From the NCBI RefSeq assembly GCF_024298765.1, contig NZ_CP101210.1: a stretch of 64,000 nucleotides of DNA. One strand, written 5' to 3'. Position 1 is the stretch's first letter, and every line of letters begins with the position of its first letter. Of the stretch, positions 3,791 to 29,637 are shown one piece after another. This DNA is from Escherichia coli. Lineage in GTDB: Bacteria > Pseudomonadota > Gammaproteobacteria > Enterobacterales > Enterobacteriaceae. A program made the translations under genes and the position numbers. The notes under the pieces were generated by a model. That model saw nothing but the letters and a program-made list of their open reading frames with translations. It was not told the DNA's origin and made no database searches.

Positions 3791-4330
3791 TTAGAAACTG
3801 CGTGGAGCTGTGGAAAGAATGGATGCCAGTTCTTCCTTCGATAAATCCCAGCTTCGATTTACAGCGTCAATTTTCTTAAACTCATCAAGCATTGCGTTAT
3901 AGAGATGTTCTGTACGTGAATGAGTATTGGCAATGGGCTGTTTCTGTTCGGGGAAGCGATCAATTTTCTGATATGCCTCAATGATACTGAAGTAATCGCA
4001 TTCATTATTACCGTCGAAACCTGGGAGCTGAATTGCCCCATCATGTATTTTTAGATGATGGTCACGGACTAATTCTTTTTGCTCGTCATCACTAAGTTTC
4101 CTGAAAGCATTGGAAAGTCCGCGATACATATTCAAGACAGCAGTAACAAAATCACGATCTTCTTTACTTGGTTCGTCAACATCCAAATGTGAATATTCGG
4201 CCTTGATAACCCAATCATTACCAGATGACACAGCATATTTAACAAGCTGTGGATCAATATCAGTTTCGATACCTAGGTGGATGGCAATGTCACATAACAA
4301 AATGGTATTGATTTTATCTTTAATATCCAT
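3791..4330 (-). CDS. Accessory (moron) protein, 179 aa, resembling YfbU/UPF0304 family; reverse strand at the lambda bor position
   Basis: Own RBS AGAGGG and promoter-like upstream region; motif pattern MY..L, GFD, C-terminal region reminiscent of YfbU (from memory, unverified). Confidence 0.5.
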   Translation of the reverse strand: MDIKDKINTILLCDIAIHLGIETDIDPQLVKYAVSSGNDWVIKAEYSHLDVDEPSKEDRDFVTAVLNMYRGLSNAFRKLSDDEQKELVRDHHLKIHDGAIQLPGFDGNNECDYFSIIEAYQKIDRFPEQKQPIANTHSRTEHLYNAMLDEFKKIDAVNRSWDLSKEELASILSTAPRSF

Positions 4331-23401: not shown

Positions 23402-23412
23402 GTGGGGTGAAT

Positions 23413-26400
23413 ATGGCAGTAAAGATTTCAGGTGTACTGAAAGACGGCACAGGAAAACCGGTACAGAACTGCACAATCCAGCTGAAAGCAAAACGTAACA
23501 GCACCACGGTGGTGGTGAACACGCTGGCCTCAGAAAATCCGGATGAAGCCGGGCGTTACAGCATGGACGTTGAGTACGGGCAGTACAGCGTTATTCTGTT
23601 GGTGGAGGGATTCCCGCCGTCACATGCCGGGACCATCACCGTGTATGAAGATTCCCGACCCGGTACGCTGAATGATTTTCTCGGTGCCATGACGGAGGAT
23701 GATGCCCGTCCTGAGGCACTGCGCCGTTTTGAACTGATGGTGGAAGAGGTGGCGCGTAACGCGTCCGCGGTGGCACAGAACACGGCAGCCGCGAAGAAGT
23801 CAGCCAGCGATGCCAGCACATCAGCCCGTGAGGCGGCAACCCATGCGACTGATGCTGCAGGCTCAGCACGCGCAGCCAGCACGTCAGCCGGACAGGCCGC
23901 GTCGTCGGCTCAGTCAGCATCTTCCAGCGCAGGAACGGCATCAACAAAGGCCAGTGAAGCATCGAAAAGTGCTGCTGCTGCAGAGTCCTCAAAAAGCGCG
24001 GCAGCTACCAGTGCCGCTGCGGCGAAAACGTCAGAAACGAATGCGGCAGCGTCACAACAATCAGCCGCCACTTCTGCATCCGCCGCGACCACGAAGGCGT
24101 CAGAAGCAGCCACCTCAGCCCGGGATGCGGCGGCCTCAAAAGAGGCAGCGAAATCATCAGAAACGAACGCATCATCAAGCGCCAGTAGTGCCGCTTCCTC
24201 GGCAACGGCGGCAGGCAATTCCGCGAAGGCGGCAAAGACGTCTGAGACAAACGCCAGGTCTTCTGAAACGGCAGCGGGACAGAGCGCCTCGGCTGCGGCA
24301 GGCTCAAAAACAGCGGCTGCGTCGTCTGCCAGTGCCGCGTCAACAAGTGCCGGGCAGGCCTCAGCCAGTGCCACCGCCGCCGGAAAATCGGCAGAAAGTG
24401 CCGCATCGTCTGCTTCAACAGCCACAACGAAGGCTGGCGAAGCCACTGAACAGGCCAGCGCAGCAGCGAGGTCTGCTTCCGCAGCGAAGACATCCGAGAC
24501 GAACGCGAAAGCGTCGGAAACCAGCGCAGAATCCTCAAAAACGGCTGCCGCATCGTCCGTCAGTTCGGCGGCGTCATCGGCATCATCGGCGTCTGCTTCA
24601 AAAGATGAGGCGACCAGACAAGCGTCCGCAGCGAAGGGCAGCGCCACGACAGCATCCACGAAGGCGACAGAGGCAGCTGGCAGTGCGACGGCGGCAGCAC
24701 AGAGCAAAAGTACGGCGGAATCCGCGGCAACGCGCGCCGAGACAGCGGCAAAACGGGCAGAGGATATTGCATCCGCCGTGGCGCTTGAGGATGCAAGTAC
24801 GACGAAAAAGGGGATAGTACAGCTCAGCAGTGCGACCAACAGTACGTCTGAAACGCTGGCGGCAACGCCAAAGGCAGTAAAATCAGCCTATGACAATGCA
24901 GAGAAACGTCTGCAGAAAGACCAGAACGGCGCTGATATACCCGATAAGGGACGCTTCCTGAACAACATTAACGCGGTCAGTAAAACAGACTTTGCTGATA
25001 AGCGTGGTATGCGTTATGTGCGGGTTAACGCTCCTGCAGGTGCAACATCTGGAAAATATTACCCTGTTGTTGTTATGCGTTCTGCTGGCTCAGTAAGCGA
25101 ACTGGCATCAAGGGTCATTATCACCACGGCAACGCGAACCGCAGGCGATCCGATGAATAACTGCGAGTTTAACGGATTTGTTATGCCTGGTGGCTGGACT
25201 GACAGGGGGCGTTATGCTTATGGCATGTTCTGGCAATATCAAAACAATGAACGAGCCATCCACTCAATAATGATGAGTAATAAGGGCGATGATTTGCGCT
25301 CTGTGTTCTATGTTGATGGCGCTGCTTTCCCTGTTTTTGCGTTTATTGAAGATGGCCTGTCAATATCCGCACCTGGTGCTGATCTCGTTGTTAATGATAC
25401 GACCTATAAGTTTGGGGCAACAAATCCAGCGACTGAATGTATCGCGGCGGACGTTATCCTTGATTTTAAGAGTGGGCGTGGTTTTTATGAGTCCCATTCG
25501 TTAATCGTTAACGATAACTTGTCGTGCAAAAAACTTTTTGCCACAGACGAAATTGTAGCGCGTGGTGGTAATCAGATTCGAATGATAGGTGGGGAGTATG
25601 GTGCATTATGGCGTAATGATGGCGCTAAAACTTACCTGCTGCTTACCAATCAAGGTGATGTTTATGGTGGCTGGAATACATTAAGACCGTTTGCTATTGA
25701 TAACGCAACCGGCGAACTGATTATTGGAACCAAACTGTCCGCAAGTCTGAACGGTAATGCATTAACAGCAACAAAGCTGCAAACGCCAAGACTGGTTTCT
25801 GGTGTTGAGTTTGATGGTTCCAAAGATATTACTTTAACCGCCGCGCATGTGGCTGCTTTTGCCAGAAGGGCAACGGATACATATGCCGATGCGGATGGTG
25901 GCGTTCCCTGGAATGCCGAATCAGGCGCTTACAATGTCACCCGCTCTGGCGACAGCTATATTCTGGTTAACTTCTATACCGGAGTCGGAAGTTGCCGGAC
26001 CCTGCAGATGAAGGCGCATTACAGAAATGGAGGTCTGTTCTACCGTTCCTCAAGAGATGGCTATGGTTTTGAGGAAGGCTGGGCAGAAGTTTATACCTCG
26101 AAAAATCTTCCACCAGAAAGCTACCCAGTTGGCGCACCAATCCCGTGGCCATCAGATACCGTTCCGTCTGGTTATGCCCTGATGCAGGGGCAGACTTTTG
26201 ACAAATCTGCATACCCGAAACTTGCAATCGCTTACCCATCTGGTGTGATCCCTGATCTGCGTGGATGGACAATTAAGGGCAAACCCGCCAGTGGTCGCGC
26301 TGTATTGTCTCAGGAACAGGACGGTATTAAATCGCATGCCCACAGTGCCAGTGCATCCAGTACGGATTTGGGTACGAAAACCACATCGTCGTTTGATTAC

Positions 26401-26814
26401 GGCACTAAATCCACGAATAACACTGGGGCGCATACCCATAGTGTTAGCGGGACTGCAAATAGTGCCGGTGCGCACCAACACAAGAGTTCCGGTGCGTTTG
26501 GTGGCCCGAACACGAGCATTTTTCCTAATGGTTATACTGCGATTTCAAATCCAAGCCCGTGGATTATGAGCACAACAAGCGGTAGTGGCCAGACTCGTAA
26601 TGCAGGGAAGACATCATCAGATGGTGCTCATACCCACTCGCTGTCCGGCACTGCTGCAAGCGCAGGCGCACATGCACATACTGTCGGTATTGGTGCTCAT
26701 ACGCACTCCGTTACGATTGGTTCACATGGACACACCATCACCGTTAACGCTGCTGGTAACGCGGAAAACACCGTCAAAAACATCGCATTTAACTATATTG
26801 TGAGGCTTGCATAA
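23413..26814 (+). CDS. stf: Side tail fibre protein Stf (about 1130 aa; expanded Ala/Ser/Thr repeat region; His-rich C-terminal fibre domain)
   Basis: N-terminus [26 protein letters not shown] and C-terminus GAHTHS...[11 protein letters not shown] match lambda Stf as recalled. Confidence 0.9.
23760..24800 (+). repeat. In-frame imperfect tandem repeats within stf (recurring AAKTSETNA...SS.SAA units)
   Basis: Repeat units visible in translation; generates long spurious ORFs in other frames. Confidence 0.6.
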
Positions 26815-27395
26815 TGGCATTCAGAATGAGTGAACAACCACGGACCATAAAAATTTATAATCTGCTGGTCGGAACTAATGAATTTATTGGTGAAGGTGAC
26901 GCATATATTCCGCCTCATACAGGTCTGCCAGCAAACAGTACCGATATTGCACCACCAGATATTCCTGCTGGCTTTGTGGCTGTTTTCAACAGTGATGAGG
27001 CATCGTGGCATCTCGTTGAAGACCATCGGGGTAAAACGGTTTATGACGTGGCTTCCGGCGACGCGTTATTTATTTCTGAACTCGGTCCGTTACCGGAAAA
27101 TGTTACCTGGTTGTCGCCGGGAGGGGAATATCAGAAGTGGAACGGCACAGCCTGGGTGAAAGATGCAGAAGCAGAAAAACTGTTCCGGATCCGGGAGGCG
27201 GAAGAAACAAAAAACAGCCTGATGCAGGTAGCCAGTGAGCATATTGCGCCGCTTCAGGATGCTGCAGATCTGGAAATTGCAACGGAGGAAGAAACCTCGT
27301 TGCTGGAAGCCTGGAAAAAGTATCGGGTGTTGCTGAACCGTGTTGATACATCAACTGCACCGGATATTGAATGGCCAGTAGCACCTATAGGGTAA
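26814..27395 (+). CDS. tfa: Tail fibre assembly protein Tfa
   Basis: Positional immediately after stf; size 193 aa. Confidence 0.85.
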
Positions 27396-28254
27396 ATTCG
27401 TAATGATTACCTAAATACGTTATTCTTTTGTTAAAAAAGTGATTTTGCTATAGGTAGGGAGTATGTTCTTGGATTAAGAATAAAAAATCGCCATGAAAGA
27501 GCTTCATGGCGAGTACATAAACGTACAAAATGTGATGAAAGTAGAGTGGCGTAAGCCACTATATTAAGATATGACAATAGCGAAGAAAAGTAAATAACAT
27601 TTCATGGACGTTTAATTGTTAATTATAAAAACTAGAGTGCCCGATATTGTTTATCTTGCTTTAAAATAATGTACTCAAACCAAATTTTTGAGCTAAAAGC
27701 TCAAATAATATAAATGCAATAATAATGTTTAATAAGACAATTAGCTTGCTTTGTATTTTCATTTCGGAATACTGTTAAGTAACTTTGATGACCCTAACAA
27801 TAGATCGGAATTTTCTTAGAGTCAATGGTCACTGTTTTTGCTTGCAAAGCAAATGTTTTGGTGGTTATAAGTTGTCTTAATATAGTCACGCATGCAACTT
27901 GTTCCATGCGGAGATTAAAGATTGGAATATAACGCGAAGATGGAATTAAATTACATTTGCAATAATCAATTTATTATTACTCAATAATTACCGATATTAT
28001 TATTGTAAATTAATCATTAGAGTGCAAAAAGAAATGTAACGGCAAAATAAGAGGACGATAGCTGAGAAAAAAGCGTGCTTTCCCAATCTGGGGCAAATCA
28101 CGTCTGAATGACACCTGAAAACAGGTGGTAGCCTCAAGAAGGCTTGGAATATTCTTCTTTAATGTTATGTAATTCATTGATTTTTCGTGTACGATTTTAA
28201 GACATTTATTCCAAGAAAAATTTTTAACTCTTTGATTTTTCGACTCTGTATCAT

Positions 28255-28316
28255 CGGTCTCGAAAACCGGAGTAGGGGCAACTCTACCGGGGGTTCAAAT
28301 CCCCCTCTCTCCGCCA
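28255..28316 (+). other. serU: Prophage attachment core: 3' 62 nt of tRNA-Ser(CGA) serU ending in CCA, no 5' half
   Basis: Sequence CGGTCTCGAAAACCGG...CCCCCTCTCTCCGCCA matches serU 3' portion as recalled; upstream sequence is not tRNA. Confidence 0.8.
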
Positions 28317-28862
28317 CTTTATCAATGACTTATCTCCTGACTTCCCGCCTTGCTTTTCCTAAACAGAACAATCGTAGAATATTCTTGAAGGGTTAGATCG
28401 TCACTGTTTTCTGTTCGATACTGTGACATTCAGCACTTGATTCGCTATGGAGCTGACAGGAAGGTTTCGAGCGAAAATCTACAGTTATTCAGTCGTTTTC
28501 TTATCGGTCACCATTATTCTTTTAGACATTGATCCTATGAAACTGCCGCAAAGTTGCTGGCGGGAACTGAAGTTGCGTAGAGAAGGGGTCAATAATTGAG
28601 TCAAAAAAGGAACGCGGCCGTCAGATTAAAGCCGCGGGACAAAGTCCATAATTTCCAAGAGTTGTTGAATTTCCCAGCTTTTTTGAAAGCCTTTGTATCA
28701 TACTAACAAGTAAAAAAGGTTTAAACACCAAAATTAACCTATATTTCTGGTTAGCTTTACCATGACAGATGACTTGCTCCTGGAAACATTTGTGCTGCCA
28801 GTCTGTATGGCTGAGTTGTGTATTTATTGTTCGCCTTTTTCGCATTTTTTTTTCTACAGACA

Positions 28863-28898
28863 TAATAAAAAAGACACGACTCAAGTATGAGCGTGTCT
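28863..28898 (-). terminator. Rho-independent terminator downstream of zinT
   Basis: AGACACG ... CGTGTCT hairpin followed by T-run on minus strand. Confidence 0.55.
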
Positions 28899-28986
28899 GA
28901 GTTTGTCTTACTTATTTGTCTTGGCAAATTATTGTTGTTACTACCAGGCACTGTTCTGTTAAATAACTGAAGTCAGCGCAAAAAAA

Positions 28987-29637
28987 TCAATGAGACATCA
29001 TCTCCTCGACCACTTCTTCGCTACTCAACTGATAGGGATAATACGTTGGCCAGTTTTCCATTTCATTCAATAAAGACTGTTGGGAATCATTACCCATAAA
29101 AATGTGAAAATGAGATGATTTTCGTGGTGCAATTATATGATCGCTAAATTGTATATATTTAGGGGCTTTGCTTTCAGGATCTTTACATTCGAATAAGTAA
29201 CGAACGCCTTTCTTGCCTGATTTATAGGTGAGTATTTTGTATCCATCGTAATCATATTTACAGGATGTTGTTTCATTATTTCTATGGAATTCGACAATGC
29301 CGTCCTCAATGCCAATCATCTCGATGTCTGTCACATAACCTTTGCGATAATAATCTTTAATTTCAGCAAATGTTTTGGTTTTATCTGCATCCGCTTTCTT
29401 CTGAAAGACGGGGTCAAGTTTGCCACTTTGCAGTAAAGGATAAACGGATTGCCAGACTCCATCCCAGTCACTGAGCGTTCGGTTTTGTACATTGGCATCA
29501 TCAAAAACACCATTAGCAGCTTTTTGTTCGACCTCTGTTAAGGGTTTGCCGTGTGAGTGATGACCATGCGAAAAGGCAGGAGCGCTAACAATAAAGACAC
29601 CTAAAGCAACAGCCAGTTTATGAAGACGAATCGCCAA
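28987..29637 (-). CDS. zinT: Zinc/cadmium-binding periplasmic protein ZinT
   Basis: Signal peptide plus HGHHSHG metal-binding motif; matches ZinT. Confidence 0.95.

What the first reader, a model, noticed from the sequence alone, without database searches (positions are those of the whole stretch)
27661..27762. Minus-strand 33-codon ORF encoding a hydrophobic peptide within the AT-rich prophage arm
ATG at 27762 (minus strand) opens a 33-codon frame translating to MKIQSKLIVLLNIIIAFILFELLAQKFGLSTLF: a basic N-terminus followed by one predicted transmembrane helix, the architecture of type I toxin or small membrane-regulator peptides. The upstream RBS is weak and AT-rich DNA generates such frames by chance, so this is speculative.
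Basis: inference. Interest (0 to 1): 0.3.

Follow-up and report, generated by a model that had tools for sequence, protein, structure and literature searches.

The report
Phage-borne YncL-like small membrane protein
The 33-codon frame is very probably a real gene that no listed annotation includes: a prophage-carried, distant copy of the E. coli stress-induced small membrane protein YncL, found in about 15% of complete E. coli genomes.

Summary
The ORF exists exactly as described (27762..27661, minus strand, 33 codons, no Shine-Dalgarno). It is not a chance frame. The peptide aligns from Met1, without gaps, to E. coli YncL, a verified 31-aa stress-induced inner-membrane protein. Scores are NCBIfam NF000537 E=1.3e-5, BLASTP 2e-7 and hhalign 94%, and none of 20,000 architecture-preserving shuffles reaches the observed score.

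Three alleles were found. The deepest (76% DNA identity, retrieved through a non-coding anchor) keeps all 33 codons, with 11 synonymous and 7 non-synonymous differences (dN/dS about 0.1, p=3e-5). Neighbouring small ORFs decay in the same lineages. The -35 and -10 hexamers and a strong intrinsic terminator are conserved around the ORF, and the module survives in degraded prophage remnants. It sits about 500 bp inside attR of a serU-integrated lambdoid prophage, in the usual cargo position.

The best reading is a moron encoding a YncL-like single-pass membrane peptide, parallel to HK97 gp15, a diverged copy of host YebO. The type I toxin reading is not supported, because no antisense RNA was found and the leader is short and unstructured. 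Expression and function are untested. An 82-nt, highly conserved, sRNA-like 3' end remains unexplained. Interest is moderate.

The parts
27797..27825 (-). Predicted sigma70/sigmaS-type promoter: -35 TTGACT (27825-27820), 17-nt spacer, -10 TATTGT (27802-27797) preceded by C
   Evidence: Consensus scan. On its own this is not above chance for the region. However, both hexamers are kept (TTGACT; TATTGT or TATCGT) in alleles B and C while the sequence upstream of -35 diverges. Activity was not tested.
27763..27796 (-). Sequence between the -10 hexamer and the ATG (34 nt; the transcribed leader is about 28-30 nt), A/U-rich, with no Shine-Dalgarno
   Evidence: Anti-SD duplex is -0.4 kcal/mol. The segment is unpaired in the centroid fold of the predicted transcript. 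Its length has no indels between alleles A and C despite 10 substitutions.
27661..27762 (-). 33-codon ORF (including stop) encoding a YncL-like single-pass membrane peptide
   Evidence: ORF. YncL similarity. Purifying selection: dN/dS 0.04-0.10. The frame is intact in 41 of 42 loci sampled without reference to the ORF.
27562..27660 (-). Proximal 3'UTR, poorly conserved
   Evidence: 66% identity with 8 gap columns between the window and allele C.
27480..27561 (-). Conserved distal 3'UTR island: hairpin GUGGCUUACGCCAC (27558-27545), single-stranded U/C-rich stretch, small hairpin, and intrinsic terminator (stem 27512-27488) with a U-run
   Evidence: Terminator scan: 11-bp stem followed by TTTTTTATTC. 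The island is 94% identical between the window and allele C while both flanks are about 65%. The 3'UTR folds with z=-4.75, and 0 of 200 shuffles fold as well. The island occurs in 826 genomes, essentially the same number as carry the 361-nt module (827), and no ORF-less copy was seen in the loci examined.
26814..27395 (+). Tail fibre assembly gene tfa, the last late gene, convergent with the sORF (context)
   Evidence: ORF. RefSeq annotation of identical DNA.
28255..28316 (+). Displaced 3' 62 nt of tRNA-Ser serU, marking attR, the right end of the prophage (context)
   Evidence: K-12 comparison. Partial tRNA-like Rfam hits. ARAGORN finds no complete tRNA.

Best explanation
The frame is a genuine protein-coding gene. 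It is a phage-carried, strongly diverged homologue of the enterobacterial small membrane protein YncL, organised as a moron. That means an independent, AT-rich transcription unit with its own promoter and terminator, placed between the last tail gene and attR of a lambdoid prophage and transcribed against the late operon.

Shown: the ORF, its YncL-like sequence, its protein-level conservation across three alleles, and conserved flanking promoter-like and terminator signals.

Inferred: the mRNA is made in the lysogen from the conserved TTGACT-17-TATTGT promoter, and probably also from leftward early (pL-type) read-through after excision, since the gene shares the int strand. Translation would start without a Shine-Dalgarno on an unstructured A/U-rich leader. 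The 33-aa product would insert as a single helix (residues 7-24) into the inner membrane, with the K2/K6 end in the cytoplasm.

By analogy with YncL, which on production causes sublethal depolarisation, the phage-shock response and nucleoid condensation (PMC12542507), it would act on the membrane itself. The outcome could be a change in membrane energetics and stress state. Alternatively, as with HK97 gp15, a diverged copy of host YebO (PMC3594210), it could block the entry of other phages.
For: 1) Homology to YncL.
- NCBIfam NF000537: E=1.3e-5, residues 1-28 on model positions 1-28 of 30.
- Precomputed Pfam PF28073 YncL hit, marked weak, on the exact product.
- BLASTP against K-12 YncL: 11/28 identities, ungapped from Met1, E=2e-7.
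- hhalign of the three-allele profile against 12 canonical YncL: probability 93.8%, E=1.7e-7, columns 1-30 on 1-30.
- Of 20,000 architecture-preserving shuffles, none reaches the observed score. This ORF scores 60, and the next best of 947 window ORFs scores 40.
- My own HMM of canonical YncL: 19.7 bits, against 6.8 for the next of 2,299 window segments and 14.6 for the best of 5,000 shuffles.
- Ten shuffles give no YncL hit in NCBIfam.

2) Coding constraint.
- Window against allele C: 18 nucleotide differences, Sd=11, Nd=7, dN/dS=0.095, Fisher p=3e-5. Random placement of the same substitutions gives an open frame with at most 5 aa changes in 0.015% of trials.
- Window against allele B: 5 synonymous and 1 non-synonymous difference.
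- Within allele C, haplotypes that are 98.2-98.4% identical over 441 nt (about 7-8 differences) show one synonymous change or none in the ORF.
- Allele C was also retrieved through a non-coding anchor.
- The residues shared with YncL (S5, L10, N12, A16, L19, F20, L22, F27, G28, and K/R at 6 and 26) are invariant among the phage alleles.

3) Controls. Five neighbouring small ORFs show start loss, stops, frameshifts or mostly non-synonymous change in the same lineages.

4) Transcription-unit signals. The -35 and -10 hexamers are conserved and a strong terminator follows the ORF.

5) Distribution. The module is in 827 of 5,426 complete E. coli genomes and in three sequenced temperate phages. It persists in decayed prophage remnants next to sitABCD.
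Against: - There is no Shine-Dalgarno in any allele, whereas canonical yncL has AAAGGUGG.
- The NCBIfam score of 25 bits is below the 35-bit equivalog cut-off, and the Pfam hit is only 'weak'.
- One metagenomic locus has ATA in place of ATG.
- Two +1 frameshift variants and one 5'-replaced variant exist in public assemblies.
- No annotation covers the ORF: none in the 120 RefSeq rows listed and none in the three phage records.
- No expression data were found.
- Only three deep lineages exist, all in Escherichia, so the selection tests rest on about 25 substitutions.
- For TM peptides this short, convergence cannot be formally excluded.
Confidence: 0.65

Rival explanations
1. The gene is real, but its role is superinfection exclusion. 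The membrane peptide would block DNA injection by other phages, as HK97 gp15 does, rather than acting like YncL on membrane energetics.
For: There is a close precedent. HK97 gp15 is a moron-encoded small inner-membrane protein that is a diverged copy of the host small membrane protein YebO and has acquired an exclusion function (PMC3594210). The gene sits in a prophage cargo position with its own promoter-like and terminator signals. It has diverged strongly from a tightly conserved host family: 37-39% identity, against 84-97% to the K-12 protein among canonical YncL from Escherichia, Citrobacter and Intestinirhabdus.
Against: There is no functional data. The module is retained in decayed remnants and next to sitABCD, where any benefit could equally be a stress phenotype. 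The PADLOC defence library was not searched, and PHROGs gave no hit.
Confidence: 0.2
2. The locus is a type I toxin-antitoxin. The peptide would be a membrane toxin whose translation is held in check by a cis- or nearby-encoded antisense RNA.
For: The product is a small hydrophobic peptide with a basic N-terminus. Its homologue YncL depolarises the membrane and lowers viability when produced (PMC12542507). The absence of an SD could mean that translation is kept low. Weak inverted repeats link the ORF to 27996-28022 (74% complementary over 27 nt).
Against: The plus-strand scan finds no terminator and only a generic promoter-like site. Rfam shows no antitoxin or any plus-strand RNA above noise. 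The leader from the predicted promoter is about 28-30 nt and unstructured (z=-0.46), not a long SD-sequestering 5'UTR. The inverted repeats are AT-rich and at chance level. Canonical YncL is not known to have an RNA antitoxin.
Confidence: 0.08
3. The functional product is an RNA, for example an Hfq-type sRNA ending at the 27512-27488 terminator. The ORF would then be incidental, or the locus would be dual-function.
For: The most conserved piece of the module is the 82-nt 3' end: 94% identity against about 65% in both flanks. The 3'UTR is far more structured than shuffles (z=-4.75). Sub-threshold, full-length, minus-strand Rfam matches to MicC, Aar and Esr41 end at the terminator. In Salmonella the yncL mRNA was first catalogued as the sRNA STnc1110 (PMC5437024).
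Against: An RNA-only model does not explain the third-codon-position bias or the indel-free 33 codons at 80% identity. There is too little variation to test covariation. The single-stranded stretch has no significant complementarity to its own leader or to K-12 yncL mRNA. The island could instead be a convergent terminator shared with the late operon. A dual-function locus remains possible and is compatible with the best explanation.
Confidence: 0.1
4. The ORF is a chance open frame in AT-rich DNA with no function, conserved only because the copies are recent.
For: There is no SD and no listed annotation. Most copies are at least 95% identical. Hydrophobic frames are favoured by T-rich codons.
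Against: Allele C is only 80% identical in the ORF yet keeps the frame, length and start, with dN/dS about 0.1. Neighbouring ORFs decay. The similarity to YncL is significant. Only 1.2% of shuffles of the arm give a comparable frame.
Confidence: 0.04

Closest known systems
YncL (E. coli b4598; NCBIfam NF000537, Pfam PF28073): 31-aa stress-induced inner-membrane protein
   Same: Nearly the same length (33 against 31 aa). The alignment runs from Met1 without gaps. Shared residues are S5, K/R6, V9, L10, N12, A16, L19, F20, L22, K/R26, F27 and G28. Both are single-TM peptides. Scores: E=1.3e-5 (HMM), 2e-7 (BLASTP) and hhalign 94%.
   Different: Identity is only 37-39%, whereas the canonical orthologues are 84-97% identical to the K-12 protein. 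The score is below the equivalog cut-off. The gene is prophage-borne rather than at patD-yncL-ortT. There is no SD, against AAAGGUGG in canonical yncL. The 3'UTR is about 150 nt and structured, against a short one. A charged residue sits at TM position 21 (E or K), where canonical YncL has T, S, A or G.
HK97 gp15 / host YebO (moron-encoded small inner-membrane superinfection-exclusion protein)
   Same: Both are small single-pass membrane proteins carried by a lambdoid phage as an independent transcription unit near the tail genes. Both are diverged homologues of a host small membrane protein (PMC3594210).
   Different: No sequence relationship is claimed. gp15 lies inside the tail operon, not at the att-proximal end. 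Exclusion activity has not been tested here.
Type I toxins of E. coli (Hok, Ldr, TisB, Ibs, ShoB, ZorO, DinQ)
   Same: Size, hydrophobic helix and membrane target. The homologue YncL depolarises the membrane when produced.
   Different: No antisense or divergent antitoxin RNA was found, there is no long structured 5'UTR, and no family HMM hit was obtained.
YohP and other stress-induced small membrane proteins of E. coli
   Same: The same class (under 50 aa, single TM, no catalytic domain). YohP and YncL share the depolarisation and nucleoid-condensation phenotype.
   Different: No sequence similarity to YohP was detected. The regulation of the phage copy is unknown.

Membership tests
YncL family (NCBIfam NF000537 equivalog / Pfam PF28073) | Score at or above the curated family cut-off | tested here: not met
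   NF000537 gives 25 bits against a 35-bit cut-off, E=1.3e-5. The precomputed PF28073 hit is marked 'weak'. The local Pfam copy lacks PF28073, since YncL itself gets no hit.
YncL family (NCBIfam NF000537 equivalog / Pfam PF28073) | Statistically significant, full-length sequence similarity to canonical YncL | tested here: met
   BLASTP E=2e-7. None of 20,000 shuffles reaches the score, and the ORF ranks first of 947 window ORFs. It is the top hit against my own HMM. hhalign gives 93.8% over columns 1-30 on 1-30. Ten shuffles give no hit.
YncL family (NCBIfam NF000537 equivalog / Pfam PF28073) | Peptide of about 31 aa with one TM helix and a polar Asn at position 12 | tested here: met
   33 aa, hydrophobic window at residues 7-24, and N12 invariant in all phage alleles and all canonical sequences.
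YncL family (NCBIfam NF000537 equivalog / Pfam PF28073) | Conserved chromosomal locus (patD-yncL-ortT) and a strong SD | tested here: not met
   The gene lies in a prophage arm next to tfa and attR. The anti-SD duplex is -0.4 against -7.2 kcal/mol. K-12 context.
YncL family (NCBIfam NF000537 equivalog / Pfam PF28073) | Membrane localisation, stress or sigmaS-dependent synthesis, and depolarisation on production | not testable with these tools
   These properties are known for YncL from PMC12542507 and PMC5437024. There are no data for the phage copy.
Type I toxin-antitoxin system | RNA antitoxin (antisense or divergent) complementary to the toxin mRNA | tested here: not met
   No plus-strand terminator was found and only one generic plus-strand promoter-like site. 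There is no Rfam antitoxin. Only AT-rich inverted repeats of 74-76% complementarity were found. The test is computational only.
Type I toxin-antitoxin system | Long structured 5'UTR that occludes the ribosome binding site | tested here: not met
   The predicted leader is about 28-30 nt. The leader plus ORF folds with z=-0.46, and the start codon is unpaired in the centroid structure. The TSS is predicted, not mapped.
Type I toxin-antitoxin system | Toxicity of the peptide | not testable with these tools
   An expression experiment is required.
Phage moron | Base composition different from neighbouring phage genes | tested here: met
   38% GC over 27001-29000, against 47-60% in the tail region.
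Phage moron | Own promoter and terminator, independent of the surrounding operon | tested here: inconclusive
   A strong terminator and a promoter-like site flank the ORF on the strand opposite to the late genes, and both are conserved across alleles. Promoter activity was not measured.
Phage moron | Present in some and absent from other related phages | tested here: met
   A query of tfa 3' end, module and chromosomal flank matches 5,425 genomes, with a median of 3 places per genome. The module itself occurs in only 827 genomes. It is found with different tfa alleles and different right-hand neighbours: attR, AraC/IS, sitABCD or an MFS gene.

The most novel reading that the evidence does not exclude
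The module would be a domesticated, dual-function phage cassette. Its mRNA would encode a host-derived YncL paralogue re-tooled for a phage purpose, such as exclusion of other phages or a controlled depolarisation and dormancy switch in the lysogen. Its ultra-conserved 82-nt 3' end would be released as an Hfq-type 3'UTR sRNA acting on host targets. This would explain why the cassette outlives the prophage around it.
Probability: 0.12. Interest if true: 0.65.

Novelty: new variant of a known kind. Interest (0 to 1): 0.42.

Why it matters
Small membrane proteins are routinely missed by annotation. This one is present in roughly one in seven complete E. coli genomes and in sequenced temperate phages, yet it is absent from every annotation examined. 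If it is expressed, those strains carry a second, divergent YncL-type peptide under phage control.

YncL was recently shown to depolarise the membrane and condense the nucleoid, but its physiological role is still unclear. A natural, diverged paralogue shows which residues matter: the N12/A16/L19-F20/L22/K-F-G pattern is invariant in both lineages. It also offers a second example, after HK97 gp15/YebO, of phages capturing host small membrane stress proteins.

Practically, the NF000537 cut-off could be complemented by a subfamily model so that pipelines annotate the gene.

Tried and rejected
- tblastn of the peptide and of YncL against the phage collection returned nothing, even for phages known to carry the DNA. 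The low-complexity filter masks the peptide, so the result is uninformative.
- The search for homologous proteins and the search for related loci refuse queries under 40 aa. A concatenated peptide+YncL query returned only proteins of 43-82 aa, which were read-through, frameshift or 5'-replaced variants.
- The exhaustive representative search found only the peptide itself and a frameshift variant at E<=0.001. The phage type therefore has no other close family among 1.84 billion representatives.
- The local Pfam copy lacks the YncL model. PHROGs gave no hit.
- A relaxed degenerate pattern in IMG/VR produced chance hits in T-rich frames. One candidate from a 33% GC phage (L084) scores 11.8 bits against the YncL HMM, within the range of shuffles, and was rejected.
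- The hairpin inside the ORF (27705-27687), flagged as terminator-like, is destroyed in allele C and was rejected as a feature.
- The annotated neighbours (the 37-aa ORF in PhiR70_1 and the 55-aa ORF in ev099) are not conserved. The 37-aa ORF loses its start and gains a stop in other lineages.
- DNA-level alignment of the phage locus to K-12 yncL shows no convincing homology outside the ORF.
- Covariation in the 3'UTR could not be tested, because the 11 haplotypes are 98% identical.
- Seed-like complementarity of the 3' single-stranded stretch to its own leader or to host yncL mRNA is not above shuffles.
- The literature search found no paper containing the peptide sequence or describing this region of these phages.

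Full report
**Observation**

An in-frame stop lies four codons upstream, so no longer version exists. Residues 7-24 form an 18-residue hydrophobic window with a mean Kyte-Doolittle value of 2.87. K2 and K6 precede it.

The 25-nt leader has essentially no complementarity to the anti-Shine-Dalgarno (-0.4 kcal/mol, against -7.2 for chromosomal yncL). Only 1.2% of mononucleotide shuffles of the 855-nt AT-rich arm produce an ATG ORF of at least 30 aa with a comparably hydrophobic 18-mer.

**Setting**

The window is E. coli. A lambdoid prophage runs head genes, tail genes, lom, stf (23407-26814) and tfa (26814-27395) on the plus strand. A 38% GC stretch follows.

Comparison with K-12 places the right prophage end at about 28255. 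Window 28255-28316 is the displaced 3' 62 nt of serU, followed by K-12-like DNA, zinT, msrQ and msrP. ARAGORN finds no complete tRNA. The sORF is therefore about 500 bp inside attR, in the position where lambdoid prophages carry cargo.

The same DNA occurs in the sequenced temperate phages mEp332, PhiR70_1 and ev099, and none of them annotates this ORF. RefSeq shows nothing between tfa and zinT.

**What the peptide resembles**

- NCBIfam returned one hit: NF000537, 'stress response membrane protein YncL'. It gave E=1.3e-5 and 25 bits (cut-off 35), with residues 1-28 on model positions 1-28 of 30.
- The exact product carries a precomputed Pfam PF28073 (YncL) hit, marked weak, in the public gene catalogue.
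- BLASTP against K-12 YncL (MNVSSRTVVLINFFAAVGLFTLISMRFGWFI, sequence confirmed) gives 11/28 identities, ungapped and starting at Met1 of both, with E=2e-7.

Controls:
- None of 20,000 full shuffles and none of 20,000 architecture-preserving shuffles reaches the observed score.
- Among 947 window ORFs of at least 20 aa, this one scores 60 and the next best 40.
- Ten shuffles scanned against NCBIfam give no YncL hit.
- An HMM I built only from canonical YncL of Escherichia, Citrobacter and Intestinirhabdus scores the ORF at 19.7 bits. The next of 2,299 window segments scores 6.8, and the best of 5,000 shuffles scores 14.6.
- A profile-profile comparison of the phage alleles against 12 canonical sequences gives probability 93.8% and E=1.7e-7, with columns 1-30 on 1-30.

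The canonical family is very tight, at 84-97% identity to the K-12 protein across three genera. The phage peptide is an outlier at 37-39%. I read it as a distant homologue, not an equivalog.

**Is it under selection as a protein?**

Loci were collected through anchors that do not involve the ORF:
- the terminator;
- the 5' leader, in metagenomes;
- the distal 3'UTR;
- plain DNA similarity in complete E. coli genomes and phages.

Of the 42 loci that cover the ORF, 41 keep it intact and one has ATA for ATG.

Three protein alleles exist:
- A, the window type, by far the most common;
- B, with A24D, in about 19 genomes;
- C, MKIQSKLIILLNIIFALILFKLLAQKFGLYTLF, in about 30 genomes.

A and B differ by five synonymous changes and one non-synonymous change (dN/dS 0.04).

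Allele C is only 76% identical to the window over the module and 80% in the ORF, yet it has the same 33 codons and no indel. Nei-Gojobori counts are Sd=11 and Nd=7, giving dN/dS=0.095 and Fisher p=3e-5. Placing the same 18 substitutions at random gives an open frame with at most 5 amino-acid changes in 0.015% of trials. Within allele C, haplotypes that are 98.2-98.4% identical over 441 nt (about 7-8 differences) carry one synonymous change or none in the ORF.

The residues shared with YncL (S5, L10, N12, A16, L19, F20, L22, F27, G28, and K/R at 6 and 26) are invariant in all phage alleles.

As a control, five neighbouring small ORFs were followed in the same lineages. They include the 37-aa frame annotated in PhiR70_1. 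They show start loss, stop codons, frameshifts or mainly non-synonymous change.

Two +1 frameshift variants (each a single base added in a homopolymer run, affecting only the C-terminal tail) and one 5'-replaced variant occur in one or two public contigs each. I consider these rare or artefactual, but they are recorded.

**Transcription unit**

On the minus strand, a TTGACT-17-TATTGT promoter-like site ends 34 nt before the ATG. An 11-bp GC-rich hairpin followed by a U-run lies about 150 nt after the stop.

The promoter match alone is not above chance for this region. However, both hexamers are retained in alleles B and C while the sequence immediately upstream diverges. The spacing from -10 to the ATG has no indel. 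The leader and the first codons are unpaired in the centroid fold.

Segment identities between the window and allele C:

| Segment | Identity |
|---|---|
| Far upstream | 81% |
| Promoter and leader | 74% |
| ORF | 80% |
| Proximal 3'UTR | 66% (8 gaps) |
| Distal 3'UTR and terminator | 94% |
| Beyond the terminator | 65% |

The gene shares the int strand. In the excised phage it would therefore also lie downstream of leftward early transcription. This is an inference from lambda gene order, not something shown here.

**Mechanism**

What is known for YncL:
- It is synthesised in minimal medium, heat shock and stationary phase.
- Its Salmonella mRNA was first listed as the sRNA STnc1110, and its translation is sigmaS-dependent (PMC5437024).
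- Producing it causes sublethal membrane depolarisation, the phage-shock response, reduced protein synthesis and nucleoid condensation (PMC12542507).
- It is an in vivo substrate of RseP (PMC10470546).

The closest conceptual precedent is HK97 gp15. It is a moron-encoded small inner-membrane protein, a diverged copy of host YebO, and it excludes superinfecting phages (PMC3594210).

I therefore propose the following. The product is a single-pass inner-membrane peptide made from its own promoter in lysogens. It acts within the membrane, either as YncL does or as an exclusion factor. All of this is inference, because no expression or phenotype data exist for this gene.

The type I toxin reading is not supported. 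No antisense transcription signals were found, there is no antitoxin RNA family hit, the leader is short and unstructured, and the inverted repeats are at chance level.

**Distribution and mobility**

The 361-nt module is in 827 of 5,426 complete E. coli genomes, always chromosomal, in one to four copies. No feature is annotated under it in any of the 120 rows listed.

It occurs in several contexts:
- at the serU attR (this window);
- next to an AraC-family regulator and IS remnants (IAI1 and the free phages);
- next to sitABCD or an MFS transporter, in remnants where tfa is already a pseudogene.

It is combined with at least two very different tfa 3' ends.

One scan of 100,044 species-representative genomes with a pattern fitting both lineages returned 25 canonical yncL genes and one phage-type copy, with no false positives and no intermediates. 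The exhaustive protein search found no other relatives.

**Unexplained**

The 82-nt 3' end (27561-27480) is the best-conserved part of the module. It comprises a hairpin, a single-stranded U/C-rich stretch, a small hairpin and the terminator. The 3'UTR folds with z=-4.75. Only sub-threshold, full-length, minus-strand Rfam matches to Hfq-type sRNAs were seen.

It may be a 3'UTR-derived sRNA, a stability element, or a terminator shared with the convergent late operon. Variation is too low for covariation analysis, and simple target tests were negative.

**Verdict**

The chance-frame reading is rejected and the type I toxin reading is not supported.

The best-supported identity is a gene absent from every annotation examined, selectively maintained and phage-borne, encoding a YncL-like small membrane protein. 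I class it as a new variant of a known kind, of moderate interest. Expression and function still need experiments.

Noticed in passing
window 27480-27561 (minus strand): An 82-nt distal 3'UTR island (hairpin, single-stranded stretch, small hairpin, terminator) is 94% identical between deeply diverged alleles, while both flanks are about 65%. It has an sRNA-like architecture with only sub-threshold Rfam hits (MicC, Aar, Esr41).
   Followed up: partly
window 28764-28986, versus K-12 L030 6027-7021: yodB (cytochrome b561 homologue), which lies between zinT and serU in K-12, has no counterpart here. About 1 kb of K-12 sequence is replaced by 223 nt.
   Followed up: no
window 28255-28594; L002-L004 up to locus position 4195: The free phages ev099, mEp332 and PhiR70_1 stay homologous to the window for 278 nt beyond the serU 3' fragment, into DNA that K-12 also has. 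The phage attP region therefore carries a long host-like segment. AraC and IS2 remnants lie between it and int.
   Followed up: partly
L089 7061-7165; L092/L093 2337-2436; L013/L014/L022/L025 second matches: In allele-C and L014-type contexts, a second, roughly 75-105-nt copy of the tfa 3' end (about 78% identical) lies upstream of the module. The module is thus bracketed by direct tfa-end repeats, a possible route for cassette exchange by recombination.
   Followed up: no
window 27157-27355 (+): The Rfam family IS009 (RF02111) matches at 226 bits entirely inside the tfa coding sequence. In this window the match to this 'RNA gene' family lies entirely within the 3' part of a tail fibre assembly gene.
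   Followed up: no
window 23700-24800 (stf, about aa 100-470): The side tail fibre protein has a very long Ala/Ser/Thr-rich, low-complexity repeat region. The GC-rich overlapping ORFs on both strands there are by-products of it. Weak isrG-like Rfam hits fall in the same stretch.
   Followed up: no
P0018, P0022, P0023 (public assemblies); L065: Rare variant alleles were seen: two +1 insertions in homopolymer runs (A5 to A6, T3 to T4) that change only the C-terminal tail, one allele with the first six codons replaced, and one ATG to ATA start mutant.
   Followed up: partly
L040 (JAIJJM010000739.1, 'Collinsella sp.' MAG, 1,552-nt contig): An exact copy of the E. coli phage module sits in a contig binned as Collinsella. 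This is almost certainly a binning contaminant.
   Followed up: no
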